From IMG/VR virus record IMGVR_UViG_2718218172_000006: a DNA stretch of 15,331 bases. One strand, given 5' to 3'. The position numbers and the translations under genes were made by a program. Below, in pieces: positions 1,513-15,331 of the stretch. Source of the DNA: a virus (lineage: Duplodnaviria; Heunggongvirae; Uroviricota; Caudoviricetes). Below the pieces are notes generated by a model. That model was not told the DNA's origin, did not search any database, and saw only the letters and a list, made by a program, of their open reading frames with translations. How positions within the stretch are numbered: the first letter of the stretch is position 1; every line of letters begins with the position of its first letter.

Positions 1513-1577
1513 TGATCTTACCCAGCAATAGTGGACACGCGGCTAAGTGAGTAAACTCTCAGTCAGAGGTGACTCAC

Positions 1578-2236: not shown

Positions 2237-2505
2237 CACTACAGCAGAGCCATGTAGACAACATCCCCTCCCCCTTTCCACCGCGTCAGACGCCCGTAGC
2301 AGCCCGCTACGGGCTTTTTCATGCCCTGCCCTAGCGTCCAAGCCTCACGGCCGCGCTCGGCCTCTCTGGCGGCCTTCTGGCGCTCCTGCTGCGGCGTCCG
2401 CTCGTGGGCCGTGGCGCGGGTCCGCGCGCCGGCCTCGTGCGCCTGGCGCTCGCGGGCGAGGTCCAGGGCGGCCGTCTTCACGTTCTGCCTTGCGCAGATG
2501 AGATA
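2237..2505. other. G+C-rich flank outside the transposon terminal repeat (probably plasmid backbone)
   Basis: Visibly G+C-rich sequence outside the 38-bp IR. The four overlapping track ORFs here are most likely chance frames. Part of it (…CGCCCGTAGCAGCCCGCTACGGGCTTTTTCATGCCCTGCCCTAGCGTCC…) reminds me of broad-host-range plasmid backbone sequence; this is unverified. Confidence 0.3.
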
Positions 2506-2543
2506 GGGGAGCCCGCAGAACTCGGAAAAAATCGTACGCTAAG
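2506..2543. repeat. 38-bp terminal inverted repeat of a Tn21-family transposon (tnpA end)
   Basis: GGGGAGCCCGCAGAACTCGGAAAAAATCGTACGCTAAG at 2506-2543, close to the Tn501/Tn1721-type IR as I remember it. The tnpA stop codon (2539-2541) lies inside it, as is typical for this family. Confidence 0.8.
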
Positions 2544-5505
2544 GTTTTCCGAGCTGCCGCAGCGGCCTGAATTTCCCGTCTTCCAGCTTGCGGCTTTGCC
2601 GCCAAACGTAATCGCCGGTCAGGTTGATGTGCTCCCAGCCCAATGGCGAAAGGTATTGCAGTAACTCAGGATTAACTGGCTTGCCTGCCTCTTCTCGGGC
2701 CTGGGTCGCGCGCTCCAAGTACACGGTGTTCCACAACACGATGGCGGCCGTCACCAGGTTGAGGCCGCTGGCCCGGTAGCGCTGCTGCTCGAAACTCCGA
2801 TCCCTGATCTCGCCGAGGCGGTTGAAGAACACCGCCCTGGCCAGGGAGTTACGCGCCTCGCCCTTGTTCAATCCGGCATGCACGCGGCGACGCAGTTCCA
2901 CGCTTTGCAGCCAATCGAGGATGAACAGCGTGCGCTCGATCCGACCCAGCTCGCGCAGAGCCACGGCCAGGCCGTTCTGGCGCGGGTAGCTGCCAAGCTT
3001 GCGCAGCATCAGCGATGCGGTGACGGTGCCCTGCTTGATCGACGCGGCCAGCCGCAGAATCTCGTCCCAGTGAGCGCAGACGTGCTTGATGTTCAGGGTT
3101 CCGCCGAGCATTGGACGCAGCGTCGGGTAGTCTTGGACGCTATTGGGCACATACAACTTGGTTTCACCGAGGTCGCGGATGCGCGGCGCGAAGCGGAAGC
3201 CCAGCAGGTGCATCAGGGCGAAGACGTGATCGGTGAAGCCAGCGGTGTCGGTGTAGTGCTCCTCGATCCGCAGATCGGACTCGTGGTACAGCAGACCGTC
3301 GAGCACGTAGGTGGAATCACGCACGCCTACATTCACCACGCGGGTGCTGAACGGCGCGTACTGGTCAGAGATGTGGGTGTAGAACAGCCGTCCTGGCTCG
3401 CTACCGTACTTCGGGTTGACGTGGCCGGTGCTCTCGCCTTTACCGCCGGCACGGAAACGCTGGCCATCGGAGGATGAGGTGGTGCCGTCACCCCAGTTGG
3501 CGGCGAAGGCATGCCGGAACTGGCTGTTGACCAGCTCGGCCAGGGCCGTCGAGTAGGTTTCGTCACGGATGTGCCAGGCTTGCAACCAGGACAGCTTGGC
3601 GTAGGTCATGCCCGGACTCGACTCGGCCATTTTGGTCAGGCCGAGGTTGATGGCATCGCCCAGGATCGCCGTTAGCAGTAGCGTCCGGTCTTTCGCCTGT
3701 GCGCCATCCTTCAGGTGCGTGAAGTGGCGGGTGAAGCCCGTCCATTCATCCACATCCATCAGCAGCTCGGTGATCTTGATGCGCGGCAGTAGCTGGCTGG
3801 TCTGGTCGATCAGCGCCTGCGCGGTGTTGGGCACCGCGGAATCCAGCGGGGTGATTTTTAGCCCGGACTCGGTGAGGATGGCATCGGGTAGTTCGTTGTC
3901 CTTTGCCAGTCGGGTGACAGTGGCCAGCTGCTCGTCCAGCAGCTGCAAACGCTCTTCCAGGTACTGGTCGCTGTTCGGGTTGATCGCGAGTGGCAGCGCC
4001 TGTTCCCGCTTGAGTGCGGCGAATTTCTCGGGAGGCAGTAGGTAGTCATCGAAGTCGCGGAACTGCCGCGAGCCTTTGACCCAGATGTCGCCGGAGCGCA
4101 GCGCGTTCTTCAACTCGGACAAGGCGCAGATTTCGTAGAAGCGCCGGTCGATGCCTTCCGGGGTGATCACCAGCGGTTTCCAGCGCGGCTTGATGAAGGC
4201 GGTCGGTGCGTCGGAGGGCACCTTGCGCAGATTATCGGCATTCATCTCGCGTAGGGTCTGAACGGCATCCAGCACGGCTTGCGCTGCCGTCGCGGCTCGG
4301 AGCTGAAGCACCTCCAGAAAGGCTGGGGTGTAGCGGCGTAGCGTAGCGAAGTTCTCGCTGACCAGGTGCAGGTGGTCGAAGGCTTCCGGCCGGGCCAGCA
4401 GCTCGGCCTCAGTGACACTCTGGGTGAACTCGTCCCAGGGAATGACCGCCTCGATGGCGGCGAACGGATCGTCACCGGACTCTTTAGCGTCCAGCAGGGC
4501 CTGGCCGATCTTCGAGTACAGGCGCACCTTGTCATTGATCGCTTTGCCCTGCTTCTGGAACTGCTGCTGATGCTTGTGTTTCGCGCCACTGAACAGCTTG
4601 ACCAGGATGCGGTCGTGCAGATCAACCAGTTCATCGATCACGGTCGCGGTGCTTTCCAGTACCACGGCGACCAGCGTGGCATAGCGCCTCTCCGGTTCGA
4701 ACTTGCCGAGGTCTTGTGGCGTCATCTGCCCGCCCTCGCGGGCGAGCTTCAGCAATCGGTTCTGGTGGATGTGCCGGCCGAGGCTGTCGGGAAGGCCCAC
4801 CAGTTGGAAAATCTTCAGCCGCTCGATGTGCTCGATCATGTGCCGCGAGTTCGGCTTCAGCGGTGATTGCCGCAACCAGGTCAACCAAGTGCTGTTGCTG
4901 CCGGCCTTAATGGTGAGCAGTTCGTCGAGCTTGGCGTGATGCGATGGGTTCAACGGCTCGATCAGGGCGCGATAGACCCGCCGATTGGCGCGTGCAATGG
5001 CCTCCGAACACGCCCGGTCAATAACGCTCAGCGTCGGCAGGATGCGCCGCTTCTGGCGCAAGCTCTCCAGCGCCTGCCCGGCCAGCAGCAAGCCCTTGTC
5101 GGTCTGCTGGGCCAGCTCGGTCAACTCGCGCACCAGGGCGCGGAAGTCCGACAGACCGAACGGGGCCAGTTGCAGGTAGGTGCGCAGTTCCAGAGCGTGC
5201 TCGCGGCGGGTCACGTCGCGCTCACCGTACTTCGCCCAACTCGCGGGGTCGGCTTGGACTTGCTTGGCCACCCACTGGATCACGGGCTCGGGTAGCGCCG
5301 TGTCGTTGCCCAGCGCATAACCAGGGTAGCGCAGCAGGCAGAGCTGCACGGCGAAGCCGAGGCGGTTGCCATCGCCCCGCCGTTGACGGATCAGGGATAG
5401 GTCGGAGTCGTTGAAGGTGTAGTAGCGGATCAGGTCATCCTGGCTTTCTGGCAGCGCAAGCAGGGTGTCGCGCTCCGTAGCCGAGAGAATCGAGCGACGC
5501 GGCAT
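2539..5505 (-). CDS. tnpA: Tn3-superfamily (Tn21 subgroup) transposase TnpA, 988 aa
   Basis: 988-aa ORF starting [37 protein letters not shown]..., with conserved blocks I recall from Tn21/Tn501 TnpA (e.g. [41 protein letters not shown]). Length matches the family. Confidence 0.95.
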
Positions 5506-5508
5506 GGT

Positions 5509-6069
5509 TCAGTCGTCCGTGCGAAGGTACTGGTAGAGGGTTTCACGGCTGATGCCGAACTCGCGTGCGAGCTGAGCCTTCGGCTCGCCGGCAGCGGCCC
5601 GCTGCCGCAACGTGATGGCTTGATCGTCGGAGAGAGCTTTCTTGCGGCCCCGGTAAGCACCGCGCTGCTTGGCCAGGGCGATGCCCTCGCGCTGCCGCTC
5701 GCGGATCAGGGCGCGCTCGAACTCGGCAAAGGCCCCCATGACCGACAACATGAGGTTGGCCATGGGCGAGTCCTCGCCGGTGAACACCAACCCCTCCTTC
5801 AAGAACTCGATGCGCACGCCGCGCTTGGTCAGCCTTTGCACCAGACGGCGCAGATCGTCGAGGTTGCGCGCCAGGCGATCCATGCTGTGCACCACCACGG
5901 TATCGCCTTCGCGGACGAATCCGAGCATGGCTTCCAGCTGCGGGCGCTGGGTGTCCTTGCCCGAGGCCTTGTCGGTGAACAGCTTGCCGATCTCGACCTG
6001 CTCAAGTTGGCGTTCCGGGTTCTGGTCGTAACTGCTGACCCGAACGTAACCGATGCGTTGTCCCTGCAA
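5509..6069 (-). CDS. tnpR: serine recombinase (resolvase) TnpR
   Basis: The track gives 5509-6123 (204 aa), but the conserved resolvase N-terminus starts at QGQRIGYVRVSS. A TTG at 6067-6069 is preceded by GGAGG, giving a ~186-aa protein typical of Tn501/Tn1721 TnpR. The start is uncertain; the ATG at 6123 is the alternative. It sits 3 bp upstream of tnpA on the same strand. Confidence 0.88.
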   Translation of the reverse strand: MQGQRIGYVRVSSYDQNPERQLEQVEIGKLFTDKASGKDTQRPQLEAMLGFVREGDTVVVHSMDRLARNLDDLRRLVQRLTKRGVRIEFLKEGLVFTGEDSPMANLMLSVMGAFAEFERALIRERQREGIALAKQRGAYRGRKKALSDDQAITLRQRAAAGEPKAQLAREFGISRETLYQYLRTDD

Positions 6070-6260
6070 GATGCCTCCATAGGCTGGATGGGCGGTAGGG
6101 CTTACGTTGGTTTTTGGTTCCATTGCGCCCTAAGCCTTGAATTTGTCAGGTTGGAATCTATGACCTTGGCAAGCATGTGTCAAAGAATGTGAAAGCAGAC
6201 TCTATTCTGACGGCGCAGTGTCGTTTTCAGAAGACGGCTGCACTGAACGTCAGAAGCCGA
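6070..6260. promoter_or_regulatory. res (resolution) site region and tnpR promoter, approximate extent
   Basis: By position: in Tn21-family elements the three-subsite res region lies immediately upstream of tnpR. Sequence shows repeated TGTCA-containing dyads (TGTCAGGTTGG…, CATGTGTCAAAG…). Sub-site boundaries not determined. Confidence 0.45.
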
Positions 6261-6502
6261 CTGCACTATAGCAGCGGAGGGGTTGGATCCATCAGGCAAC
6301 GACGGGCTGCTGCCGGCCATCAGCGGACGCAGGGAGGACTTTCCGCAACCGGCCGTTCGATGCGGCACCGATGGCCTTCGCGCAGGGGTAGTGAATCCGC
6401 CAGGATTGACTTGCGCTGCCCTACCTCTCACTAGTGAGGGGCGGCAGCGCATCAAGCGGTGAGCGCACTCCGGCACCGCCAACTTTCAGCACATGCGTGT
6501 AA

Positions 6503-6602
6503 NNNNNNNNNNNNNNNNNNNNNNNNNNNNNNNNNNNNNNNNNNNNNNNNNNNNNNNNNNNNNNNNNNNNNNNNNNNNNNNNNNNNNNNNNNNNNNNNNN
6601 NN
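6503..6602. other. assembly gap (100 N)
   Basis: Run of 100 n characters. Confidence 0.99.
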
Positions 6603-6607
6603 GTCTC

Positions 6608-6763
6608 TTACTCCTCAGGTTCGTAAGCTGTGAAGACAGCGACCTCCGTCTGGCCGGTTCGGATTCGTACCTCGCAGAGGTCTTTCCTCGTTACCAGTGC
6701 CGTCACTATGACGGTTAAACAGATGACGATCAGGGCGATTAACATCGCCTTTTGCTGCTTCAT
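6608..6763 (-). CDS. hokD: Hok/Gef-family small membrane toxin (HokD/RelF-like), 51 aa
   Basis: Not in the track (under 60 aa). My manual translation gives MKQQKAMLIALIVICLTVIVTALVTRKDLCEVRIRTGQTEVAVFTAYEPEE, stop at 6608-6610, with AGGAGA upstream of the ATG. It lies 71 bp downstream of relE, as in the relBEF locus. Confidence 0.85.
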   Translation of the reverse strand: MKQQKAMLIALIVICLTVIVTALVTRKDLCEVRIRTGQTEVAVFTAYEPEE

Positions 6764-6834
6764 AGCCTGCTTCTCCTGTCAACGCAAAGCAGAAGTGTCA
6801 CCTTCGGTGCGAAACAGAGATGTCATGCTTTGGT

Positions 6835-7122
6835 TCAGAGAATGCGTTTGACCGCCTCGCTATATACTTCCGAGCGTTCTCTTTTCCCAACAGAAATCAC
6901 GAAAACGACAACTTTCTCGTCTATAACCTGGTATACAAGGCGATAGCCTGAAGACCGGAGCTTAATCTTGTAACAATCAGGCATACCACGGAGCTTGTTT
7001 GCTTCAATCCGGGGTGACTCAAGTACTTCAACCAGCTTCTTTTTCAACTGTTCACGTACCGTCGAGCCCAGCTTTCGCCATTCCTTTAGTGCCCGCTCGT
7101 CAAAATCCAGAAAATACGCCAT
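6835..7122 (-). CDS. relE: RelE mRNA-interferase toxin (type II TA)
   Basis: 95-aa ORF MAYFLDFDERALKEWRKLGSTVREQLKKKLVEVLESPRIEANKLRGMPDCYKIKLRSSGYRLVYQVIDEKVVVFVISVGKRERSEVYSEAVKRIL, recognised as E. coli RelE. Confidence 0.95.
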   Translation of the reverse strand: MAYFLDFDERALKEWRKLGSTVREQLKKKLVEVLESPRIEANKLRGMPDCYKIKLRSSGYRLVYQVIDEKVVVFVISVGKRERSEVYSEAVKRIL

Positions 7123-7361
7123 CAGAGTTCATCCAGCGTCACACGTACTGGCTTAGGATTACGAAGCCGTTCTTTCACTATCTCCACAAGTTCAGCATCT
7201 TCATCACTCAGGAGTGTCTGTTTGAACGGCAAGCGTTCATTGTCAGCGATATACTCGAGCATGAGACGAAGCGCTTCAGAAGGAGTTACACCCATTTTTT
7301 CAAGCGCGGCGTAAGAACGCGCTTTAAGTTCATCGTCAATACGCAGGTTAATGCTACCCAT
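7122..7361 (-). CDS. relB: RelB antitoxin
   Basis: 79-aa ORF MGSINLRIDDELKARSYAALEKMGVTPSEALRLMLEYIADNERLPFKQTLLSDEDAELVEIVKERLRNPKPVRVTLDEL, recognised as E. coli RelB. It overlaps the relE start by 1 bp. Confidence 0.95.
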   Translation of the reverse strand: MGSINLRIDDELKARSYAALEKMGVTPSEALRLMLEYIADNERLPFKQTLLSDEDAELVEIVKERLRNPKPVRVTLDEL

Positions 7362-7425
7362 GTCTTACACCTCTTGTAATTACAAATGTCATTACAAGTA
7401 TCGCACTACAACATGCTTAGGGCAA
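7362..7425 (-). promoter_or_regulatory. relBE promoter/operator region (relO-like hexad repeats)
   Basis: Immediately upstream of relB the minus strand reads …TTGCCCTAAGCATGTTGTAGTGCGATACTTGTAATGACATTTGTAATTACAAGAGGTGTAAGAC-ATG. The palindromic TTGTAAT/ATTACAA repeats are consistent with the RelB-RelE operator. Confidence 0.55.
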
Positions 7426-7691
7426 GTCACGAAGGAAGTCAGAAAGTAGTCGTAAGAACGGTGATCACTGTCCGCTTTGTGCCAGGAGCAGCCATTGCTA
7501 AGTCCATCCTGTATTGTGCAGGTCAGCTCGTTTTTAAAGAGTCCGGCCATCATCTTACTGGTACAGACACCATATACTTTGTGACGGTCAGGCTACATAT
7601 GCACAACTCAACTTATTCATCTATTTTTTGCTTTAGCATGTCAGTGTTGCTTTCTCGTCGGCGGGTGAGCGGTGACCTGACCTGTCGATAA
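7386..7691 (+). CDS. ydfV: hypothetical protein (YdfV-like ORF), doubtful
   Basis: 101-aa track ORF between relB and flxA, the position and length of K-12 ydfV as I remember it. It overlaps the relBE promoter and has an odd composition, so it may not be a real gene. Confidence 0.3.
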   Translation: MSLQVSHYNMLRASHEGSQKVVVRTVITVRFVPGAAIAKSILYCAGQLVFKESGHHLTGTDTIYFVTVRLHMHNSTYSSIFCFSMSVLLSRRRVSGDLTCR

Positions 7692-7843
7692 AGGAACGTA
7701 ACACGTTTTATGCAACACCCGCATGCGGCAGAAAATTATTGCCGAACGTTTACCCCTGTCAACAAGCTTTACTTTCTGAGGCGCGCCAGCCCGCGAGGAA
7801 AACAATCTGAACATCAAACAATTAATGACACAAGAAATACGAT

Positions 7844-7870
7844 TAAAGATTTTTTTGTGCATGCCGATAG
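7844..7870 (+). promoter_or_regulatory. sigma-28 (FliA) class-3 flagellar promoter of flxA
   Basis: TAAAGATT (7844-7851), 11-nt spacer, GCCGATAG (7863-7870), against the sigma-28 consensus TAAAGTTT-N11-GCCGATAA. AAAGGAG ribosome-binding site at 7880-7886, ATG at 7894. Confidence 0.7.
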
Positions 7871-7893
7871 TGCTTTTTTAAAAGGAGAAATCT

Positions 7894-8226
7894 ATGTCTG
7901 TCACAATTCAGGGAAATACCTCAACCGTTATTTCAAACAACTCCGCCCCGGAAGGAACATCAGAAATAGCCAAAATCACAAGACAAATTCAGGTGCTGAC
8001 TGAAAAGCTTGGGAAAATCTCATCGGAAGAGGGGATGACGACACAGCAGAAAAAAGAAATGGCTGCATTGGTACAGAAGCAAATTGAAAGCCTCTGGGCT
8101 CAACTGGAGCAGTTGTTAAGGCAGCAGGCAGAGAAAAAGAATGAAGACGCGACAGTTCAGCCTGATAAAAAAGAAGAGAAAAAAGACGATACAAATACCG
8201 CTGGCACCATTGATATTTACGTCTAA
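7894..8226 (+). CDS. flxA: FlxA (FliA-regulated protein), 110 aa
   Basis: 110-aa ORF MSVTIQGNTSTVISNNSAPEGTSEIAKITRQIQVLTEKLG…, recognised as E. coli FlxA, with a sigma-28 promoter just upstream. Confidence 0.85.
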   Translation: MSVTIQGNTSTVISNNSAPEGTSEIAKITRQIQVLTEKLGKISSEEGMTTQQKKEMAALVQKQIESLWAQLEQLLRQQAEKKNEDATVQPDKKEEKKDDTNTAGTIDIYV

Positions 8227-8240
8227 GTGACAGCCGTATT

Positions 8241-8264
8241 GTGGCCCTCATCGGGCCACTTTTC
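8241..8264 (+). terminator. intrinsic terminator downstream of flxA
   Basis: GTGGCCC-tcatc-GGGCCAC (7-bp perfect stem) followed by TTTTCGCC, 15 nt after the flxA stop. Confidence 0.6.
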
Positions 8265-8313
8265 GCCATCAGCCTTTTCTTTAAAGACATATTATCTTTG
8301 TATCATTTCTGAT

Positions 8314-10162
8314 AGTTAACATTACAAGATATAAGTAATGGACGCACTCCCAATTAGTCTATTTAAATCGCCACGAGTTTAACTGACAACCCATGATCAA
8401 TTATGAATTGCAACTATTTCTGTAGTCACTTTTGTGGGGACAGTCCACAAAACTGCCAACTTCCGCTTCTTGCTCTTAGCGGACATTAGCATAGGCTATT
8501 TACCATAACGCCTCATTACGCGCACCGCCCAGACTGACTCAGCGCGTTTCTGGCATATCCCCGGTAAAACAAGTAACAAACCACCCGAAAATGAACACCA
8601 GAAACGCGACTTAAGAATCTACCCTATGAATGGATATGCACTCAACCGAATCGATCTTGGTTTCAATCTTTTTTATCGGGATCAGGCTTCTTTTTAGGTA
8701 ACTTCGGGGGCTTAACTTGCTGATGACTTTGCGTTCGGCGCGTAAGCCAGGGATGGTCAGCTTTAGGTTTAACATAGTATTTTGAGCGTAAATCAATACG
8801 GGCATTATCCACTCGTTCATGGACACTCTTTTCATCATCCAGTGGTATAGGCTCCGGGCCATCAACATACTTTTCCCAGCCCAGCGCTTTCCCGTCATAC
8901 AGAACGTTAATTTCACCGTCAAAGTTCTCGCATACAGTAACAACCGAATGCCTAAGTCGATATCCCCGGCCCTCACTGCGTACCTGAAACGCACTGCTTT
9001 TGTACTGGAAAGTGAGATTTTTAGACAGAACGCGCTTCGCCTGTAGGCTGAAGATATAACCCAGTTCCTCTTCAGAATGGTGCACATCAAGATGAGCATT
9101 ATCAGTAGTACGAGGCGACGTAGCGAACCGGTTGTTATAGGCTTCAATAAAGGTCGGCAACCATGCATTTGCTGTTTCAATATCACTGATATTCTGAAGC
9201 CGCATTTCTTTGACCAGCCTGTCCTGTAGTGTCTGATTGGCGCGCTCTACCCGCCCTTTTGCCTGCGGGCTGTTGGCATGGATTGGCTCGATGCCCAGTG
9301 TCTTTATCGCACGAGTGAACTGGGTCAGCTCACCTTCCCGCTCTGGGTTATTTACCCTGAATATACTGTGTCTATCAGAGTAGAGAGCGAGCGGTACGCC
9401 ATGATCATTAAGGTAACCCCGGAGGGTTTCCATGTAAGCCCGGGTTGTTTCAGCAGGCACAAAACGCAACGCCATCAACGCACTGGTGGCATCATCAATG
9501 AAAACGATCAGTGTACATCTGGGGCCTCGATTTTCAAACCAGTCATGAGGTGAGCCATCAATCTGGATCAGTTCACCGTAAGATGGTCGTCGCATGCGGC
9601 GTTGATATATACGGGCAATTTTACGACGGCGTTCACGCCATAACCCCTCTTCTATCATCCACTTTCTGAGAGTTTCAACGGATAAAGATAAACCGTGTAT
9701 CTCGCGCAATTTTTCGCACGCAAACGTAGGTCCAAAATCAGCGTAACGGCCTTTGAGGAGTGAAATTACTGTTGCTCTGAATTCAGTAGAAAAGGAATTA
9801 TTAGGACGCTTTCCACGTCGGTGGGAAACCAGACCAGAAGGCCCTTCATTTCTATACCGTTGCACCAGACGTTTAACCTGCCGAATAGAAATGCCAATGC
9901 GTGCCGCAGCTTGTTCCTGAATAATCTGAAGTCGGTGGAGTTCCTTATGACTCATCGTAACAGTCTCTTTGATCATGAAAAATCCCCCAGAGAATTGTCT
10001 GGGGACATTTTAGAATGGTTCAAAGGGGACATTACAGCTTGGTGTTAACAATAGCCTGCTTCTCCGTGCCTTTCGGCACGTAAGAGGCTAACCTACATGT
10101 GTCTAGCATGAAATTGGCCTCAGATTAATGTTAAGCGTCTTGCAGGACGCGTAATGTTAACT
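8314..10162 (-). mobile_element. insertion sequence carrying the DDE transposase; ends uncertain
   Basis: The only candidate terminal repeats I could find by eye are a perfect 12-bp inverted pair, AGTTAACATTAC at 8314-8325 and GTAATGTTAACT at 10151-10162. The true ends may lie inside this span. No target-site duplication identified. Confidence 0.3.
8663..9976 (-). CDS. DDE transposase, rve/integrase-core type (IS481- or ISNCY-like), 437 aa
   Basis: 437-aa ORF with an N-terminal helix-turn-helix region (IGISIRQVKRLVQRYRNEG) and a D…D…E arrangement typical of rve-fold transposases (LIQIDGSPHDW … LALYSDRHSIF … KGRVERANQTLQ). Lysine-rich C-terminal tail. Exact IS family not identified. Confidence 0.8.
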   Translation of the reverse strand: MIKETVTMSHKELHRLQIIQEQAAARIGISIRQVKRLVQRYRNEGPSGLVSHRRGKRPNNSFSTEFRATVISLLKGRYADFGPTFACEKLREIHGLSLSVETLRKWMIEEGLWRERRRKIARIYQRRMRRPSYGELIQIDGSPHDWFENRGPRCTLIVFIDDATSALMALRFVPAETTRAYMETLRGYLNDHGVPLALYSDRHSIFRVNNPEREGELTQFTRAIKTLGIEPIHANSPQAKGRVERANQTLQDRLVKEMRLQNISDIETANAWLPTFIEAYNNRFATSPRTTDNAHLDVHHSEEELGYIFSLQAKRVLSKNLTFQYKSSAFQVRSEGRGYRLRHSVVTVCENFDGEINVLYDGKALGWEKYVDGPEPIPLDDEKSVHERVDNARIDLRSKYYVKPKADHPWLTRRTQSHQQVKPPKLPKKKPDPDKKD

Positions 10163-10310
10163 GGGGCTTTTCTCTATCTGCCGTTGGTGTCCATGCCCGA
10201 GGCAGATAGCCTCAAGCACCCGCAGTCATTCTACTTAACTAAGATTTCCCCGCAAACCGTTTTTGTCCAGCACAGTAAATATCCAACTAAACCAATGGAG
10301 TTCGCTGTAT

Positions 10311-10490
10311 TTACCGCCAGTATTCAATGCACATGACCGCCATGAACACCCCTAAAAAAAGGGCATTTATATATCCAAATATTAATATCAAAACATCAAC
10401 TTTTTCCATATACCTTGCTGTGAAGATGATGGGCATACATGATGCGAACAACCAGAACGCAACAAACAAAAACTGCAATGCGTTTTTCAT
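10311..10490 (-). CDS. small two-helix membrane protein, 59 aa (track ORF 10311-10529 trimmed to the ATG with a ribosome-binding site)
   Basis: ATG at 10488-10490 is preceded by GTAGGAGGAATA-ATG, a near-consensus Shine-Dalgarno. Product MKNALQFLFVAFWLFASCMPIIFTARYMEKVDVLILIFGYINALFLGVFMAVMCIEYWR has two hydrophobic helices. No family recognised. Confidence 0.5.
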   Translation of the reverse strand: MKNALQFLFVAFWLFASCMPIIFTARYMEKVDVLILIFGYINALFLGVFMAVMCIEYWR

Positions 10491-10674
10491 TATTCCTCCT
10501 ACAATCAATGTGCAATTACATTTAAACACACCTCAATTTGGCCGGACATATAAATATCTAAACCAGAAAAAATCACTTACATAGCGTTACAAACTCTTTA
10601 GTCTAAAGGTTCATCGTAAAACATTCCCCATACTTATCAGTCCGTTCCGCGCCAGGTAGCTCATTGCCTTATCT

Positions 10675-10704
10675 GGCAACCTGTAATCAGGTTTCCGCTT
10701 TTTC
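10675..10704 (+). terminator. candidate intrinsic terminator (plus strand)
   Basis: GGCAACCTG-taat-CAGGTTTCC (9-bp stem, one mismatch) followed by GCTTTTT. No convincing plus-strand gene upstream, so the terminated transcript is unknown. Confidence 0.3.
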
Positions 10705-11642
10705 AGTTGGCTGGTCGTTTAACCGACATAGTTAATCCATTAATCTAGTTGCCGGATGTTGGTGGATTTTCGCGTTTTAGTTGTTCATAAAAGTGCACAG
10801 CTTTAACCAGTTCTTCTGATGTAACTGGGACTGGTGAGGCAGTGAATAAGGCCTGAATTTGATAGTTCGGCCTGTCGTTACAATCCTCTTTTTTCGGTAC
10901 ATATTTCCAGTCACCAGACCACTACTTCCCCTGAAAGTCCGTAACGCCTTTTTTCACGTAGCGATATCGCCATGCCACTGGTTTTGCTTGCCCCGCCGTT
11001 TCATGCCCTTCCTGATAATTAATCTCGCTCATTCATCGCCCCACTCATCACAATATGCTTCGACCGGAGTTTTTCCCGCTTCATAGTCATCACGCTAGGA
11101 TTCGACATCAGCAGCACTTCCACCGCGTAACTCACCATAGTCCATTAATAGTTCATCCCGCTCTTCAAAACTGATGTTATATTTAGCTGAACAAAAATCA
11201 GCCACTTTGTTCTTCCTCATCGTCTTTTATTTCGTGGTATGAGTAATTGCAGTAGTTAAAGAAAATTTCTTATGCTCCGTCATGAATTTCCTCAGGTGTT
11301 GCGTCATCGTCCACTTCGAATACATCCTCAAAATCTCCACCAGCTATTCCCGTTTCAATAATAATTTTGAACTTTCGCATTTCACTACCGCCCTTTCGGG
11401 CGGCCTCCTGATGTTCTGAGGGTGCAGAAATCCATCCGGTTAAGGATTAAATTTTATTTACAGAACTGAATTTAATTATTCAGATATACGTATCTGTAGC
11501 CTTACGAATCTACTCACTGGATGCCTCTTTCATAAAAATAATCCAGTGGGTTTTATCGTTTTTTCCCTGTTCGTTGACAGATAACAGGTTTTCTGTCTGT
11601 CAGTGCCAGAATCTGGCTTACCGGTATTTGCGTTTCATTCCA

Positions 11643-11999
11643 TTAAAAAATCAGAACGCCGTGCGGCCTCAACACCCGAAAGGCTTCTTTAAATCTCTGT
11701 CGCGAATCATCACGCCAGGCATCTTTATTCAGCCGTCCATATTTCTTTCCCATCCAGGCGTTATCACCAACACTCTCAAGATGCGGAGGGTCTAATACAA
11801 CCATCGAAAAAGATGCGTCTGCAAATGATAATGCACGAAAATCTGCGATAATGTCAGGGCTGATAATCAAGCGTCTCCCATTGCGTAATGTGTATCCTTC
11901 TTTTCTGATATCGCTGAATATCGCCCGTTCGTCAGACTTATCGAACCAGAACATGCGGCTGCCACAGCACATATCAAGAATGGTTGCCGGTGCACTCAC
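11643..11999 (-). CDS. DNA N6-adenine methyltransferase-like protein, short (118 aa), possibly truncated
   Basis: An N-terminal SAM-binding-like motif (LDMCCGSRMFWFDK) is followed by a DPPH motif (VVLDPPHLE), resembling the DPPY/DPPW catalytic motif of amino-methyltransferases. The GTG start overlaps the stop of the upstream gene by 4 bp. The frame stays open for 29 more codons beyond the TAA stop, suggesting a nonsense mutation or an unusually short enzyme. Confidence 0.5.
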   Translation of the reverse strand: MSAPATILDMCCGSRMFWFDKSDERAIFSDIRKEGYTLRNGRRLIISPDIIADFRALSFADASFSMVVLDPPHLESVGDNAWMGKKYGRLNKDAWRDDSRQRFKEAFRVLRPHGVLIF

Positions 12000-12418
12000 T
12001 GCGCCACGTCCTGAAAATTACCCTGATAGAAAGCCAGTATGCGCTGCATAACTTCGCTCTTCCGGCACTCGCGACAGATTATGTTTAGGCGACTGTCGTA
12101 GCGACGTATTTCTCCGTCAGGTGATGACCAGATAAGGTCCGGATCAACCACAGCAGGTTTCTTCACCTTTGCCCTCGAGAGTTTTTTGCGGGCGTTTTGC
12201 CAGTCCTTACGCGCCTGTTCAGAGGGGAATAACCCGTAGCCGGAGTTGTATACATCGCCACTGGCTACCAGCTCTCTGGCAAGAACGCTCATCAGATATC
12301 TAGTCGCACCTGTTTTAGCTTCCAGTTGCCGTAACGTCTCACGGCCGCTCTGGCGCACGAGTTCCACCACCTGCCATTTAATTTTTTCCCGCTCTTCTTG
12401 TGTAAAAACTTTTGCCAC
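11996..12418 (-). CDS. hypothetical prophage protein with a putative helix-turn-helix (140 aa)
   Basis: 140-aa track ORF with a GTG start. It has an HTH-like segment (ETLRQLEAKTGATRYLMSVLAREL) and a basic central region, and is translationally coupled to the downstream methyltransferase-like gene. Family not recognised. Confidence 0.55.
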   Translation of the reverse strand: MAKVFTQEEREKIKWQVVELVRQSGRETLRQLEAKTGATRYLMSVLARELVASGDVYNSGYGLFPSEQARKDWQNARKKLSRAKVKKPAVVDPDLIWSSPDGEIRRYDSRLNIICRECRKSEVMQRILAFYQGNFQDVAQ

Positions 12419-12458
12419 AAGTCCCCCTTAAAATTACCTCATGACCTGAAATCAACAC

Positions 12459-13424
12459 TTATCCTCTGAAACCAGGCGGAATTTCTGTATCCGGTTCAGA
12501 AATATGATTAACACAACGCTGTACAGGTGAACGTCCCAGGCGGATGACCAGTTCGTCCCATTTTTCGCGGAGCTTTGACGGGCTCATGATGTTTTTTACC
12601 CAGAATGGATCTCGCTGAACCCGACCAAACATTTCGCAAATTTGTCTGTGGCTTCTGCCATCCAGCATCCGCATTGTGCGCACGTCATTGGCCCAGGCAG
12701 TCCAGTTAGGCTCTTTTGGTCGCATGATCTCGCCATCATCACTGGCTGCCTGTTCGTAGAGACCCACGATCCGCCCCCAGATCCACTGCGCACACGCCAA
12801 ATCCTCCCTGCTACCCCACTGGCGTTTTTTCGCACTAAACACAACCGCGTCGGAGTTCCGGGTTAAAAAATCCTGTTCAGTCGTCTGCGGGTCCGGTTGC
12901 GAAGCTTCCGGACGAAAAGTGTTTTTATTCTCTGTAGTAATCTCTGTTGTATTCTCTGTAAGATCATCAGGCCATTTTGACCCGATGACATTGGGTCGTT
13001 TTGAACCAATGGAGCGTTTCATTTTGACCTCTTCCATCGTGTCATTTTGACCTGATGGAGCGGCGCATTTTGAACCGATGGATTCGCTCAATTTGCCACC
13101 ATCTAAAAGCTCGCTCCCATAGTTGATCGTGTAGAAATTGGTCATATCGCGCTTTGATTTATTGAGCTTTTCACAACGCAAAAGCCCCAGCGTTTTCAGA
13201 CTTGCAAACGCGCGCTTTAACGTTGACTCTGACCAGAATGGGAACTGTTCCAGCCATTGTTCCGTTGTGTTATAAATCCAGCGAACACCATCACATTCCA
13301 TGCCGGAGTTGGTATCTCTCAACCAGTAGTGCAGTTGTTGCAAAACAATGGCTTCGTTTAAGCCAATTTTCATTGCCAGCTGCGTGTTTATAACCAGTGG
13401 GCGTTCAGCAAAAAGAAGGCTCAT
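12459..13424 (-). CDS. lambda O-like replication initiator (replisome organiser) with an embedded candidate origin
   Basis: Track ORF 12459-13478 trimmed to the first ATG (13422-13424). It sits where a lambdoid O gene would, downstream of the Cro-like dicC. The N-terminal region looks like a DNA-binding domain, and the central linker is encoded by five direct DNA repeats followed by an A+T-rich stretch, as in ori-lambda. This is a functional inference; similarity not verified. Confidence 0.6.
   Translation of the reverse strand: MSLLFAERPLVINTQLAMKIGLNEAIVLQQLHYWLRDTNSGMECDGVRWIYNTTEQWLEQFPFWSESTLKRAFASLKTLGLLRCEKLNKSKRDMTNFYTINYGSELLDGGKLSESIGSKCAAPSGQNDTMEEVKMKRSIGSKRPNVIGSKWPDDLTENTTEITTENKNTFRPEASQPDPQTTEQDFLTRNSDAVVFSAKKRQWGSREDLACAQWIWGRIVGLYEQAASDDGEIMRPKEPNWTAWANDVRTMRMLDGRSHRQICEMFGRVQRDPFWVKNIMSPSKLREKWDELVIRLGRSPVQRCVNHISEPDTEIPPGFRG
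12973..13083. repeat. five iteron-like direct repeats (~23-bp period) inside the O-like gene
   Basis: Plus strand: cATTTTGACCCGATGaca (12973), cGTTTTGAACCAATGGAG (12997), tcATTTTGACCtcttcca (13019), tcATTTTGACCTGATGGAG (13042), gcATTTTGAACCGATGGAt (13065). The adjacent A+T-rich 12901-12960 contains ATTCTCTGTA twice. Confidence 0.6.
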
Positions 13425-13926
13425 AATTCCATCCAGCTTTTTGTTGGTATTGCTGTCGATACGCAAGTTTGAAAGCAATTGCTTTTTCTATAAGTTCGTC
13501 AGTTTCACGATCCACTACGGCAGGATCAGCAAAAAGCAGTCCGGACTCCACCACATCGCCATATTCTTTGTTTAACCCGGCGATCATGCACGTGATGCTT
13601 TTTCCGTCAGTAATTTCACGATACAACCTGAAATCATTAATCCGGATAGCCTCCATAATTGCAGGCACTAGCGCCGTGAACTTTTCACGCTTATCCCTGG
13701 TGTCGATAGCCTTCCAGCGTTCAAATATCTTCACTCGATTAACGCCAAGCGCTCGCTGATCAATCGCGCCACCTTCATATGTGACACGCTGAACATCGAT
13801 GTTCGGGCGCTCTTTCAAAGCCCAGAATGCTTCAGTGATTAATATCGTCGCCTGCTCCTGTGTCATTCCTGGTCGACATATCCAGGCATCCAGAGCCTCA
13901 CGAGCCTGTTCAGGAGTGATTTTCAT
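13405..13926 (-). CDS. hypothetical prophage early protein (173 aa)
   Basis: 173-aa ORF starting at ATG 13924-13926. It overlaps the dicC stop by 17 bp and the O-like gene start by ~20 bp. It sits where a lambdoid cII-like gene would; no family recognised. Confidence 0.5.
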   Translation of the reverse strand: MKITPEQAREALDAWICRPGMTQEQATILITEAFWALKERPNIDVQRVTYEGGAIDQRALGVNRVKIFERWKAIDTRDKREKFTALVPAIMEAIRINDFRLYREITDGKSITCMIAGLNKEYGDVVESGLLFADPAVVDRETDELIEKAIAFKLAYRQQYQQKAGWNYEPSFC

Positions 13927-14140
13927 TGTTCAACCGCCCCGCCCGCTTCGTCTTACGATATTCATCATAAACTTTGGGATCATACTGAAGCTCCCCGCCA
14001 GATGCCTCCTGTAGACGCATCGCGCGACCTTCGGGAACTAAATCCCCTTTCCAGCTATAAAGCGAAGCCAAACGAATACCTGCTGCTTGTGCAAGTTTTG
14101 TTTTTGAACCGAAATACAAAAGAGCGTCAGTTTTAAGCAT
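13910..14140 (-). CDS. dicC: DicC (Cro-like repressor), 76 aa
   Basis: 76-aa ORF MLKTDALLYFGSKTKLAQAAGIRLASLYSWKGDLVPEGRAMRLQEASGG…, transcribed divergently from dicA. Recognised as E. coli DicC; length matches. Confidence 0.88.
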   Translation of the reverse strand: MLKTDALLYFGSKTKLAQAAGIRLASLYSWKGDLVPEGRAMRLQEASGGELQYDPKVYDEYRKTKRAGRLNNENHS

Positions 14141-14223
14141 TTAAAACACCTTTATTGTTAGTCATAACTAACAAGATAGATGTTAACAAAAACATAGTCA
14201 ATACGATTTAGCATTAGCTAACT
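14141..14223. promoter_or_regulatory. dicA/dicC divergent promoter-operator region
   Basis: An 83-bp intergenic region contains a 20-bp palindrome TTGTTAGT-cata-ACTAACAA (14155-14174) with perfect 8-bp arms, TGTTAACA (14181-14188), and TTAGC-atta-GCTAA (14208-14221) overlapping the dicA start. Confidence 0.65.
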
Positions 14224-14631
14224 ATGGAAACAAAAAATTTAACTATCGGCGAACGCATCAGGTATCGTCGGAAAAACCTCAAACACACCCAAAGGTCTCT
14301 TGCTAAAGCCCTGAAAATCTCCCATGTGTCTGTATCACAATGGGAACGGGGTGATAGTGAACCTACAGGGAAGAACCTTTTTGCCCTCAGCAAAGTATTG
14401 CAATGCTCACCAACATGGATTCTATTTGGCGATGAAGACAAGCAACCAACACCACCTGTTGAGAAGCCAGTTGCCTTATCCCCCAAAGAACTAGAGCTCC
14501 TTGAGCTGTTTAATGCACTGCCAGAATCAGAACAGGATACCCAGCTCGCCGAAATGCGAGCTCGAGTAAAAAACTTCAATAAACTCTTTGAAGAATTACT
14601 AAAAGCCCGTCAGCGGACAAATAAAAGATAA
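14224..14631 (+). CDS. dicA: DicA (XRE/cI-type HTH repressor), 135 aa
   Basis: 135-aa ORF METKNLTIGERIRYRRKNLKHTQRSLAKALKISHVSVSQWERGDSEPTGKNLFALSKVLQCSPTWILF…, recognised as E. coli DicA; HTH_XRE motif evident. Confidence 0.95.
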   Translation: METKNLTIGERIRYRRKNLKHTQRSLAKALKISHVSVSQWERGDSEPTGKNLFALSKVLQCSPTWILFGDEDKQPTPPVEKPVALSPKELELLELFNALPESEQDTQLAEMRARVKNFNKLFEELLKARQRTNKR

Positions 14632-14659
14632 CATCATCAATGAGTTATCTTTTACCACA

Positions 14660-14725
14660 TCAATTATGTTAGCTATAGCATACAAAATAACTTGACCGAT
14701 ATGTTAGTCATGGCTAATCTTGTTT
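14660..14725 (+). promoter_or_regulatory. candidate dicB-operon promoter with operator half-sites
   Basis: TTGACC (14692-14697), 17-nt spacer, TAATCT (14715-14720). GTTAGT/GTTAGC motifs related to the dicA/dicC operator half-site sit at ~14666-14681 and 14703-14718, overlapping the spacer. Confidence 0.5.
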
Positions 14726-14797
14726 GCATCAACACACCGCACGGTGTTCTCAGCAAACAGTTCCGCTACCCCAGCGTTAAGGGGAAATGAGGTCAGC

Positions 14798-14953
14798 ATG
14801 GATACTATCGATCTTGGCAACAACGAATCTCTGGTGTACGGCGTGTTTCCAAACCAGGACGGCACGTTCACCGCAATGACGTATACCAAAAGCAAAACGT
14901 TTAAAACCGAAAATGGTGCCCGTCGCTGGCTGGAAAGAAACTCAGGTGAGTGA
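14798..14953 (+). CDS. ydfA: YdfA, 51 aa
   Basis: Track ORF 14720-14953 trimmed to the internal ATG at 14798, which is preceded by AAGGGGAAATGAGG. Product MDTIDLGNNESLVYGVFPNQDGTFTAMTYTKSKTFKTENGARRWLERNSGE matches K-12 YdfA in sequence and length as I recall it. Confidence 0.8.
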   Translation: MDTIDLGNNESLVYGVFPNQDGTFTAMTYTKSKTFKTENGARRWLERNSGE

Positions 14954-14954
14954 T

Positions 14955-15083
14955 ATGGATTTCGACACAATCATGGAAAAGGCTTACGAAGAATACTTCG
15001 AAGGCCTTGCCGAAGGCGAAGAAGCTCTCAGCTTCAGTGAGTTTAAACAGGCGCTTTCCAGTTCGGCAAAATCTAACGGCTGA
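14955..15083 (+). CDS. ydfB: YdfB, 42 aa
   Basis: Not in the track (under 60 aa). ATG at 14955 is preceded by AGGTGAG; product MDFDTIMEKAYEEYFEGLAEGEEALSFSEFKQALSSSAKSNG, stop at 15081-15083. Position and length match K-12 ydfB. Confidence 0.7.
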   Translation: MDFDTIMEKAYEEYFEGLAEGEEALSFSEFKQALSSSAKSNG

Positions 15084-15112
15084 TAAGCGAAACAGCACCG
15101 CGAGGAATCAGT

Positions 15113-15331
15113 ATGCAGAAACGAGAACCCGTCATCATCGCGCCAGACTATACCGATGATGAACTTTATGAGTGGATGCGCCAGAAAATTAATGCAGCGC
15201 AGGATCTGAAATGGGCTAATGAAGCCAGGGCTAAGCAGGCTGAAAATCTGTCCGCTCTGGAGCAGGATATCACCAATCTGGAAAAAGCAGCGGCATTAAG
15301 CATTGCCAGAATGATTACATACCCGCGTTAG
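15113..15331 (+). CDS. ydfC: YdfC, 72 aa
   Basis: 72-aa ORF MQKREPVIIAPDYTDDELYEWMRQKINAAQDLKWANEARAKQAENLSALEQDITNLEKAAALSIARMITYPR, with GAGGA upstream and a stop at 15329-15331, the last codon of the window. Confidence 0.8.
   Translation: MQKREPVIIAPDYTDDELYEWMRQKINAAQDLKWANEARAKQAENLSALEQDITNLEKAAALSIARMITYPR

What the first reader, a model, noticed from the sequence alone, without database searches (positions are those of the whole stretch)
6603..15331. Qin-like prophage retaining early-left genes that K-12 has lost
hokD-relE-relB-(ydfV)-flxA and dicC-dicA-ydfA-ydfB-ydfC match K-12 Qin in order and protein length. Here about 5.9 kb separates flxA from dicC, containing a 173-aa protein, an O-like gene with iterons, a 140-aa protein, a methyltransferase-like gene, a small-gene region, a small membrane protein and a transposase element. 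From memory, K-12 has only short pseudogene remnants in this interval. This locus may therefore show the ancestral organisation and what the K-12 deletion removed.
Basis: partly seen in the sequence, partly recalled or inferred. Interest (0 to 1): 0.4.

Follow-up and report, generated by a model that had tools for sequence, protein, structure and literature searches.

The report
Fuller Qin prophage; relBE transposon in hokD
This is an ordinary, fuller copy of the E. coli Qin prophage from which K-12 lost 4.8 kb (its replication module), but it also shows that the classic relBE toxin-antitoxin genes arrived inside a 3.3-kb transposon inserted at the start codon of the hokD toxin gene.

Summary
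Window 6603-15331 is 100% identical to Qin-type prophages of many E. coli and 99.94% identical to the 48.7-kb phage record PhiR42_1. K-12 matches 6603-8847 and 13647-15331 and lacks 8848-13646 (4,799 bp). The junction shares only 'TA'. K-12 ydfW is the last 49 codons of a transposase. K-12 ydfX is the first 93 codons of a CII-like/YdaT gene.

The lost genes (CII-like, O-like initiator with iterons, DUF977, methyltransferase fragment) lie downstream of the cro-like dicC, so they are early-right, not early-left. The locus is also not ancestral.

Window 6777-10050 (relE, relB, ydfV, flxA, IS1202-family transposase) has 19/26 terminal inverted repeats and a perfect 15-bp target duplication. It splits hokD from its sok/leader RNA (10051-10221). 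The uninterrupted site exists in 1,071 of 5,426 E. coli genomes.

Units of this kind, with different duplications, sit at the same place in at least six other hok-family genes. I found no paper describing this. 'ISEsa1' is catalogued as 1.6 kb with no duplication.

The prophage comparison is routine. The transposon reading is moderately interesting.

The parts
6608..6763 (-). hokD toxin ORF (51 aa), cut off from its own leader
   Evidence: Annotated hokD in the identical cq9 locus. Peptide MKQQKAML... lies directly next to the left duplication.
6762..6776 (.). Left copy of the 15-bp target-site duplication ATAGCCTGCTTCTCC (reverse complement is the hokD Shine-Dalgarno sequence plus AT of the ATG)
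   Evidence: Perfect direct repeat of 10051-10065. Present once in empty-site genomes.
6777..6802 (+). Left terminal inverted repeat (IRL) TGTCAACGCAAAGCAGAAGTGTCACC
   Evidence: 19/26 match to IRR. About 20/26 by my own count to the IRL of a plain 1.44-kb relative in a Chromatiales MAG (sequences).
6835..7122 (-). relE (cargo), reads outward towards hokD
   Evidence: 100% identical to K-12. Conserved at the IRL end of most enterobacterial units.
7122..7361 (-). relB (cargo)
7386..7691 (+). ydfV (variable cargo)
   Evidence: Replaced by other cargo in L006/L016/L023/L076.
7894..8226 (+). flxA (variable cargo)
   Evidence: Pfam FlxA..
8663..9976 (-). IS1202-family (ISEsa1-type) DDE transposase, 437 aa, with an in-frame 9-aa loss near the N-terminus. 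Its last 49 codons are K-12 ydfW.
   Evidence: NCBIfam NF033594, 456 bits. Alignment to 446-aa copies. ydfW identity.
10025..10050 (-). Right terminal inverted repeat (IRR); read inward it is TGTTAACACCAAGCTGTAATGTCCCC
   Evidence: Sharp end of homology in 15 loci from different genera.
10051..10065 (.). Right copy of the 15-bp target-site duplication
10051..10221 (-). Orphaned hokD leader / sok region
   Evidence: Rfam RF01794 (sok), 104 bits against a gathering score of 59, full-length model ending at the IRR joint.
10311..10490 (-). 59-aa hydrophobic ORF with an AGGAGG ribosome-binding site, unannotated in cq9
   Evidence: No NCBIfam hit.
10611..11380 (-). Decayed small genes: a frameshifted hypothetical gene (10611-11032) and a DUF7167 gene with an internal stop (11198-11380)
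   Evidence: PGAP flags in the identical cq9 locus.
11643..11999 (-). Methyltransferase fragment (118 aa)
   Evidence: Matches only positions 52-165 of the 229-position PHROG 954 profile.
11996..12418 (-). DUF977 / LygF / 'Ren-like' protein (140 aa)
   Evidence: Pfam PF06163, full length. PHROG 142.
12459..13424 (-). Replication initiator, O-like (321 aa)
   Evidence: PHROG 391, E = 1e-91. Annotated as protein O in some genomes and in PhiR42_1.
12965..13103 (.). Origin iterons inside the O-like gene: five clear copies plus one degenerate copy, period 23-24 bp, core CATTTTGA(C/A)C. A 63% A+T stretch lies next to them (12900-12964).
13405..13926 (-). CII-like / YdaT-family gene (173 aa). Its first 93 codons are K-12 ydfX.
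   Evidence: Pfam YdaT_toxin, PHROG 163..
13910..14140 (-). dicC (Cro-like)
   Evidence: NCBIfam PRK09744, Pfam P22_Cro.
14224..14631 (+). dicA (CI-like repressor)
   Evidence: NCBIfam PRK09706.
14798..15331 (+). ydfA, ydfB, ydfC (start of the early-left operon)
   Evidence: cq9 and K-12 annotation.
8848..13646 (.). Segment absent from K-12 MG1655 (4,799 bp)
   Evidence: Exact mapping. The two flanks share only the dinucleotide TA at the junction.

Best explanation
Window 6603-15331 is the immunity, replication and early region of a full-length Qin-type lambdoid prophage. Three layers of history can be read from it.

(1) Ancestral phage layout. [quoted passage not shown]

(2) Transposon insertion. 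A 3,274-bp IS1202-family transposon inserted at the hokD translation start and duplicated 15 bp (the Shine-Dalgarno sequence plus AT of the ATG). Its order is IRL, relE, relB, ydfV, flxA, transposase, IRR. The insertion separated the hokD ORF from its promoter, leader and sok antisense gene. It placed the ORF directly downstream of the outward-reading relBE operon. This is the known relBEF (relB-relE-hokD) arrangement.

(3) Deletion in the K-12 lineage. A 4,799-bp deletion by illegitimate recombination (2-bp microhomology) removed the following: the first 376 codons of the transposase, IRR, the orphaned hokD leader/sok, the small genes, the methyltransferase fragment, DUF977, the O-like gene with its origin, and the 3' half of the CII-like gene. 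It left the remnants ydfW and ydfX. The prophage could then no longer replicate, and the transposon could no longer move or be recognised.

Shown here: the identities, the end points, the inverted repeats and duplication, the empty site, the split hok leader, and insertions of related units in other hok genes. Inferred: that the O/iteron module is a working origin, that the transposase actively selects the hok leader, and that hokD is translated from relBE transcripts using the duplicated ribosome-binding site.
For: K-12 deletion. The exact end points were mapped, and the K-12 ydfW and ydfX products are truncated parts of longer ORFs. The K-12 junction occurs in 360 of 5,426 genomes. Among the 40 listed I recognise mostly K-12 laboratory derivatives, and several are labelled as laboratory strains.

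Replication module. The same CII-like, O-like and DUF977 module, at 96.6% identity over the shared part, occurs in phage HannyBb, whose record gives its source as bird droppings. It also occurs in the 48.7-kb record PhiR42_1, which is 99.94% identical over all 8,729 bp.

Transposon. A perfect 15-bp direct repeat lies exactly outside the 19/26 inverted repeats. The IRL resembles the IRL of plain 1.4-kb relatives in Hahella and a Chromatiales MAG, which also have 15-bp duplications at varied sites. The reconstructed empty site (509 nt) is uninterrupted in 1,071 of 5,426 E. coli genomes, at up to 99.8% identity, for example in strain SW071618. Rfam sok (RF01794) matches at 104 bits and ends at the IRR joint.

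Independent insertions. The same 3.3-kb unit sits on an Enterobacter IncF plasmid and a Salmonella IncI plasmid with different duplications (ATGGCCTTCTTCTCC and ATCATAGCCCCTCCA). Units with other cargo (4.3-6.1 kb) have their own duplications.

hok targets. Seven different Hok-family peptides abut the IRL-side duplication. Rfam sok hits end at IRR in seven further loci.

Population counts (of 5,426 genomes). The hokD|relE junction is in 1,164 and the transposase|hok-leader junction in 678.
Against: The window's transposase lacks 9 residues in its N-terminal DNA-binding region, so this copy may be inactive. No transposition has been observed.

The boundary between the conserved transposase module and the cargo (about 8458-8472) has no IRL-like sequence. 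An IRR-like motif in the wrong orientation lies at 8480-8505. This is unexplained.

Nine related copies show IRR but no partner IRL or duplication within the DNA held (up to 6.4 kb). Movement of the 1.6-kb part alone cannot be excluded.

ISfinder and Harmer & Hall 2023 define ISEsa1 as 1,609 bp with 15/22 inverted repeats. I could not inspect that reference sequence.

No separate helicase-loader gene was identified in the replication module, and origin activity is untested.

Ramisetty & Santhosh 2016, which first reported relBE integration into hokD, could not be read. It may contain more than the citing paper says.
Confidence: 0.85

Rival explanations
1. K-12 shows the ancestral state, and the 4.8 kb in the window is a later insertion (for example, recombination with another lambdoid phage).
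For: Lambdoid prophages are mosaic and swap modules. Only 287 of 5,426 genomes carry at least 80% of the whole 8.7-kb form in one place.
Against: K-12 ydfW and ydfX are truncated pieces of ORFs that are full-length here, in plasmids of other genera and in phages. The K-12 junction has only 2 bp of homology and fuses two unrelated genes out of frame. The K-12 junction is found mainly in what I recognise as K-12 laboratory derivatives.
Confidence: 0.02
2. Only the 1.6-kb ISEsa1 is mobile. relBE-ydfV-flxA were phage morons already sitting next to hokD, and the IS simply landed beside them.
For: ISfinder lists ISEsa1 as 1,609 bp. Homology between copies with different cargo stops near window 8458-8472. 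Nine copies have no IRL within the DNA held.
Against: The empty site lacks relBE, ydfV, flxA and the transposase together, and carries one copy of the 15-mer. The duplication flanks the whole 3,274 bp. There is no inverted repeat or duplication at the 1.6-kb boundary. The 1.6-kb definition is the one for which no duplication could be found. The same 3.3-kb unit has different duplications in three hok loci.
Confidence: 0.04
3. The association with hok genes comes from one ancient insertion that then spread among hok paralogues by homologous recombination or by selection, not from target choice by the transposase.
For: hok loci are similar enough to recombine. In phage-derived contigs nearly all copies are the one hokD event. 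Insertions that disarm a toxin could be favoured.
Against: In each locus the two duplication copies match each other but differ between loci. The insertion point shifts by 1-8 nt relative to the ATG while staying adjacent to the leader hairpin TTGCC....GGCA. One copy (L019) is at the same site in the opposite orientation. Non-hok targets (L036) also begin TTGCC after the duplication. A related subgroup of the IS1202 family is known to be site-specific, for dif sites.
Confidence: 0.1

Closest known systems
Cryptic prophage Qin of E. coli K-12 MG1655 (b1544-b1579)
   Same: Same gene order. 100% nucleotide identity over hokD-flxA-ydfW and 2 mismatches over ydfX-ydfC. In the strain with the identical sequence (cq9), the prophage lies next to rspB as in K-12.
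   Different: The window carries 4,799 bp that K-12 lacks: most of the transposase, IRR, the hokD leader/sok, small genes, a methyltransferase fragment, DUF977, the O-like gene with its origin, and the 3' part of the CII-like gene.
ISEsa1 (IS1202 family, formerly the ISNCY/IS1202 group), as listed in ISfinder and in Harmer & Hall 2023 (PMC10132070)
   Same: The transposase is named ISEsa1-family by PGAP in plasmid records and matches NF033594. The right end is shared by many enterobacterial copies.
   Different: ISEsa1 is catalogued as 1,609 bp, with 15/22 inverted repeats and no target duplication. Here the unit bounded by inverted repeats and a 15-bp duplication is 3,274 bp and includes relBE, ydfV and flxA. 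The catalogued left end has no counterpart.
ISAjo2-type IS1202-family elements that target dif/pdif sites (PMC10132070)
   Same: Same IS family. Insertion at a fixed short distance from a conserved palindromic site, and in a preferred orientation.
   Different: A different subgroup, with 3-5-bp duplications and a XerC/D-site target. Here the duplication is 15 bp and the recurrent target is the hairpin plus ribosome-binding site of hok-family mRNA leaders. The targeting is inferred from 7 of 9 sites with paired duplications, not tested.
[quoted passage not shown]
   Same: The hokD ORF plus a full-length match to the Rfam sok/leader model. Intact versions occupy the same position in related prophages and in phage HannyBb.
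   Different: Here the ORF and the leader are 3.3 kb apart, separated by the transposon. In K-12 the leader is deleted altogether. From memory, Pedersen & Gerdes 1999 attributed hokD inactivation to an unspecified rearrangement.
Bacteriophage lambda ori/O module
   Same: Iterons followed by an AT-richer stretch inside the initiator gene, downstream of cro- and cII-like genes.
   Different: The initiator has no Pfam hit and matches only PHROG O-like families. The iterons are 23-24 bp with a different consensus. No P- or DnaC-like loader gene follows; a DUF977 gene does.

Membership tests
Qin-type lambdoid prophage | Synteny and near-identity with K-12 Qin genes on both sides of the interval | tested here: met
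   100% identity over 6603-8847; 2 mismatches over 13647-15331.
Qin-type lambdoid prophage | Integration between ydfJ and rspB | not testable with these tools
   The contig ends at 6603 and 15331. In cq9, which has the identical sequence, the integrase lies next to rspB.
Lambdoid early-right (replication) operon | Cro-like gene followed on the same strand by a CII-like gene and an initiator gene containing iterons | tested here: met
   P22_Cro/DicC, PHROG 163, PHROG 391, and five clear iterons plus one degenerate copy.
Lambdoid early-right (replication) operon | Helicase loader (P or DnaC type) | tested here: not met
   No such family was found among the ORFs at 10311-13926. Phage HannyBb also lacks one in this module.
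IS1202 family transposable element | DDE transposase of the family | tested here: met
   NF033594, 456 bits against a cut-off of 250, covering profile positions 7-365 of 368.
IS1202 family transposable element | Imperfect terminal inverted repeats of about 22-29 bp | tested here: met
   19/26 between 6777-6802 and 10025-10050.
IS1202 family transposable element | Target-site duplication (3-5 bp, or 16-28 bp in the subgroups listed in the source paper) | tested here: met
   Perfect 15-bp duplication here and in 8 other distinct insertions. 15 bp also in the plain Hahella relatives. This is one base shorter than the 16-28 bp range quoted.
ISEsa1 as catalogued (1,609 bp, no duplication) | Element limits about 1.6 kb apart, with 15/22 inverted repeats | tested here: not met
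   No convincing inverted-repeat pair at a 1.5-1.95 kb span. Homology of the transposase module ends at 8458-8472 without an IRL.
[quoted passage not shown] | Hok-family ORF preceded by the conserved leader / sok region | tested here: met
   Both are present but split by 3,274 bp. RF01794 matches at 104 bits and ends at IRR. The joined sequence is contiguous in 1,071 genomes.
[quoted passage not shown] | Functional regulation of hok by sok (post-segregational killing) | not testable with these tools
   Needs expression and killing assays.
relBE type II toxin-antitoxin system | Identity with the characterised K-12 relB and relE | tested here: met
   Same protein accessions as K-12-type RelB and RelE in cq9; the DNA is 100% identical.

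The most novel reading that the evidence does not exclude
The transposase of this IS1202-family lineage recognises the conserved hairpin and ribosome-binding region of hok-family mRNA leaders and inserts 15 bp from it, usually in one orientation. The element's outward-reading relBE operon then captures the hok toxin ORF and strands its sok antitoxin. On this reading the transposon specifically hijacks type I toxin-antitoxin loci of plasmids and prophages, and the textbook K-12 relBEF operon is the decayed product of such an event.
Probability: 0.3. Interest if true: 0.75.

Novelty: new variant of a known kind. Interest (0 to 1): 0.5.

Why it matters
The prophage comparison itself is routine. 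It gives exact end points for a K-12 deletion. It explains two K-12 'orphan' genes, ydfW and ydfX, as gene remnants. It also shows that K-12 Qin lost its replication initiator and origin.

The less expected result concerns relBE, one of the most studied toxin-antitoxin systems. In K-12 relBE is usually treated as a chromosomal or prophage gene pair with hokD as a third gene. The fuller locus shows that relBE, ydfV and flxA are cargo of a transposon inserted at the hokD start codon.

This supplies a mechanism for the reported 'integration of relBE into hokD'. As far as I recall, an older report also attributed hokD inactivation to an unspecified rearrangement, which this would explain. It suggests that the catalogued ISEsa1 has the wrong left end, which would account for the missing target duplication. 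It also points to a possible second site-specific subgroup in the IS1202 family, one aimed at hok loci on plasmids and prophages. That idea can be tested directly with a transposition assay.

Tried and rejected
Inverted-repeat search assuming a 1.5-1.95-kb IS. It gave only weak pairs at 14-16 of 22, none at the homology boundaries. I dropped it in favour of locating the ends empirically from related loci.

Treating window 1-6602 as part of the prophage. It does not match Qin. It is separated from the finding by 100-N spacers and consists of a Tn3-family transposon contig and an IS3/acyltransferase contig.

Scan of viral contigs with the exact IRR. It returned almost only the same hokD event, so it added no independent target sites.

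Scan of metagenomes with the exact IRL. It added several hok-family junction variants. The frequent flank 'GACCCATACATCTCC' proved to be a rearranged Qin variant: in L219, IRR still abuts the hokD leader. It is not a new target.

Search for IRL partners in L005, L008, L014, L017-L019, L022, L033, L037 and L038. None was found within the DNA held. L020 has a nested or tandem arrangement.

Literature. I found no description of a relBE-carrying IS1202-family transposon or of hok targeting. Ramisetty & Santhosh 2016 is not held.

IS-mediated adjacent deletion as the cause of the K-12 deletion. Rejected because the left end point lies inside the transposase gene, not at an element end.

Full report
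**1. What the window is**

The window is a scaffold. There are 100-N runs at 2137-2236 and 6503-6602. The finding starts at the first base after the second spacer.

Bases 1-6502 do not match Qin. They consist of two unrelated contigs:
- a contig with an acyltransferase fragment and an IS3-family transposase;
- a contig with a Tn3-family transposase and resolvase, about 89% identical to TnAs1/Tn21-type elements.

These contigs cannot be assumed to be linked to the prophage.

**2. Check of the observation**

Window 6603-15331 is 100% identical to the chromosome of E. coli cq9 and many other strains. In 287 of 5,426 complete genomes a single match covers at least 80% of it.

Against K-12, window 6603-8847 is 100% identical and 13647-15331 has two mismatches. 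Window 8848-13646 (4,799 bp) has no counterpart. The distance from flxA to dicC is 5.7 kb here and 0.88 kb in K-12.

- a 173-aa YdaT/CII-like protein;
- an O-like initiator with five clear 23-24-bp iterons and a degenerate sixth, next to an AT-richer stretch;
- a 140-aa DUF977 protein;
- a methyltransferase-like gene;
- decayed small genes;
- a 59-aa hydrophobic ORF;
- a transposase.

**3. The K-12 deletion**

The two end points share only the dinucleotide TA.

The left end point lies inside a 437-aa transposase ORF (8663-9976, minus strand). K-12 keeps the last 61 codons, and its annotated ydfW is exactly the last 49 residues.

The right end point lies inside the 173-aa CII-like/YdaT ORF. K-12 ydfX is its first 93 residues plus three out-of-frame codons.

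These remnants show that the difference is a deletion in K-12, not an insertion here. It looks like illegitimate recombination. It is not IS-mediated, because the end point is internal to the transposase gene.

The K-12 junction occurs in 360 of 5,426 genomes. Among the 40 listed I recognise mostly K-12 laboratory derivatives, and several records are labelled as laboratory strains.

**4. What was deleted, and on which side of the immunity region**

dicA is a CI-type repressor and dicC a P22-Cro-type protein.

The deleted genes lie downstream of dicC on the same strand. In full-length relatives they are followed by the Q-like antiterminator and the lysis genes. They are therefore the equivalent of lambda's rightward early operon (cro-cII-O-...-Q), not 'early-left'. 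The leftward operon (ydfABC, dicB, exonuclease, xis, int) runs the other way from dicA.

The module of CII-like, O-like and DUF977 genes is present at 96.6% identity over the shared part in phage HannyBb, whose record gives its source as bird droppings. It is also present in the 48.7-kb record PhiR42_1 from ECOR13, which has lambda-like head genes and int/xis and is 99.94% identical to the whole finding.

So the deletion most probably removed the replication initiator and origin of Qin. That is an inference from homology and iteron architecture. No loader gene was identified.

The interval is already decayed in the window. The methyltransferase matches only positions 52-165 of a 229-position profile, and two small genes are pseudogenes.

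**5. The transposon**

The transposase is named ISEsa1-family (IS1202 family) in plasmid records. On two plasmids the whole stretch from relE to the transposase recurs at 98% identity inside hok-type loci.

Related loci from one genome per species gave a sharp right end of homology at window 10050 in 15 loci.

Immediately outside that end lies ATAGCCTGCTTCTCC (10051-10065). The same 15-mer lies at 6762-6776, just upstream of the hokD ATG. The 3,274 bp between them begins and ends with 19/26 inverted repeats.

The left repeat, which lies just beyond the 3' end of relE, closely resembles the left repeats of plain 1.4-kb relatives in Hahella and a Chromatiales MAG. These relatives have 62% identical transposases and also make 15-bp duplications at varied sites.

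A sequence built from the two flanks with one copy of the 15-mer (509 nt) is found uninterrupted in 1,071 of 5,426 E. coli genomes, at up to 99.8% identity. One example is strain SW071618. Its prophage has rem, hokD, the small genes, the methyltransferase gene (a pseudogene in that strain), DUF977, O-like, YdaT, cro and cI, but no relBE, ydfV, flxA or transposase.

The Rfam sok/hok-leader model matches window 10050-10221 over its full length, at 104 bits against a gathering score of 59. The match ends exactly at the transposon joint.

Conclusion: relE-relB-ydfV-flxA plus the transposase is one transposon. It inserted at the hokD start and separated the ORF from its promoter, leader and sok.

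**6. The whole unit moves, and often into hok genes**

The same 3.3-kb unit has different duplications on the Enterobacter plasmid (ATGGCCTTCTTCTCC) and the Salmonella plasmid (ATCATAGCCCCTCCA).

Units with the same IRL-relE-relB end and transposase, but other cargo, have their own matching duplications. The cargo includes a cation-efflux protein and cytochrome b561, with or without an IS110-family insertion, and unit sizes are 4.3-6.1 kb.

Seven different Hok-family peptides start right at the IRL-side duplication. Rfam sok hits end at IRR in seven further loci.

Of nine distinct insertions with a verifiable pair of duplications, seven are in hok-family translation-initiation regions. The duplication always abuts the leader hairpin TTGCC....GGCA. 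One further copy (L019) is at the same position in the opposite orientation. Non-hok targets exist (L016, L036).

I infer target preference, but I did not test it. Recombination among hok loci is a weaker alternative.

**7. Consequences and counts**

After insertion, the hokD ORF keeps a ribosome-binding site, supplied by the duplicated 15-mer, and lies downstream of relBE. This matches the co-transcribed relBEF operon reported by Gotfredsen & Gerdes 1998, as cited in PMC5120126.

In 5,426 genomes the counts are:

| Feature | Genomes |
|---|---|
| hokD\|relE junction | 1,164 |
| transposase\|hok-leader junction | 678 |
| K-12 deletion junction | 360 |

The window's transposase lacks nine residues (QESINRHIT) of the N-terminal DNA-binding region that the 446-aa plasmid copies have. 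It may therefore be inactive.

**8. Comparison with what is known**

It is common knowledge that K-12 Qin is defective, and full-length relatives are in the databases. That part is not new.

A 2019 review states that relBE, acquired from plasmids, integrated into hokD, citing Ramisetty & Santhosh 2016. I could not read the 2016 paper.

Harmer & Hall 2023 list ISEsa1 as 1,609 bp, with 15/22 inverted repeats and no detectable target duplication. They place it in its own subgroup, and show that a different subgroup targets dif sites.

I found no paper describing the IRL beyond relE, the 15-bp duplication, the cargo structure or the hok target.

The element meets the family criteria: transposase, inverted repeats and a long duplication. 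It does not fit the catalogued limits of ISEsa1.

**9. Open points**

The border between the transposase module and the cargo (about 8458-8472) has no end-like repeat in the expected orientation. An IRR-like motif at 8480-8505 points the wrong way.

Nine related copies have no IRL within the DNA held.

How cargo is exchanged while relBE stays 98.8% identical across genera is unexplained.

**10. Verdict**

K-12 did lose this interval, but it is the early-right replication region, and the locus is an intermediate rather than the ancestor.

The added value is the reading of relBE-ydfV-flxA as transposon cargo inserted in hokD, which the K-12 deletion had hidden.

Noticed in passing
window 2137-2236 and 6503-6602: Two runs of 100 N. 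The window is a scaffold of three contigs, so the finding's start (6603) is a contig end, and the Tn3-type sequence to its left is not shown to be adjacent to hokD.
   Followed up: yes
window 2237-6502: Tn3-family transposase (988 aa, 2539-5505, minus strand) and serine resolvase (204 aa, 5509-6123, minus strand). About 89% identical to TnAs1/Tn21-type transposons. No E. coli genome covers 80% or more of window 1-6700.
   Followed up: partly
window 1-2136: A separate contig with a partial 328-aa ORF of no recognised family, a 163-aa malonyl-transferase-like fragment (984-1475, minus strand) and the start of an IS3-family transposase (1569-2134, plus strand).
   Followed up: partly
window 9890-9920 (transposase residues 20-28): The transposase here is 437 aa. 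It lacks nine residues (QESINRHIT) in the N-terminal helix-turn-helix region that the 446-aa copies on plasmids and in Shigella have. Both 3,274-bp and 3,301-bp versions of the unit circulate in Qin-type prophages.
   Followed up: partly
window 10311-10490 (minus strand): Unannotated 59-aa hydrophobic ORF (MKNALQFLFVAFWLF...) with a strong AGGAGG ribosome-binding site, between the hokD leader and the decayed small genes. No NCBIfam family match; other libraries were not searched with it.
   Followed up: partly
L001 (cq9) 10061-11374, equal to window 8663-9976: RefSeq annotation splits the continuous transposase ORF into 'ydfW' and an 'ISNCY transposase, missing C-terminus'. This looks like an artefact of carrying over the K-12 gene name.
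   Followed up: yes
L085 (E. coli CP53) 8666-9973: An independent loss of the methyltransferase, DUF977 and O-like genes and the 3' part of ydaT, next to an IS5, in a prophage with an intact hokD locus. The replication module appears to be lost repeatedly.
   Followed up: no
window 8480-8505: A motif resembling the right inverted repeat (GCGGACATTAGC...), in the same orientation as the real right end, at the border between the conserved transposase module and the variable cargo. Its role is unknown.
   Followed up: partly
L016 (Kluyvera sp.) about 4837-4950: One non-hok insertion of a 4.6-kb unit lies next to a match to the Rfam isrO small RNA. L025 (Hahella) shows tandem insertion of the plain IS beside another copy's end.
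   Followed up: no
L086 (phage PhiR42_1, PV340562): A 48.7-kb record deposited as a complete phage from ECOR13 carries the whole finding at 99.94% identity, including the transposon. It also has lambda-like head genes, integrase and excisionase. No paper on it was found.
   Followed up: partly
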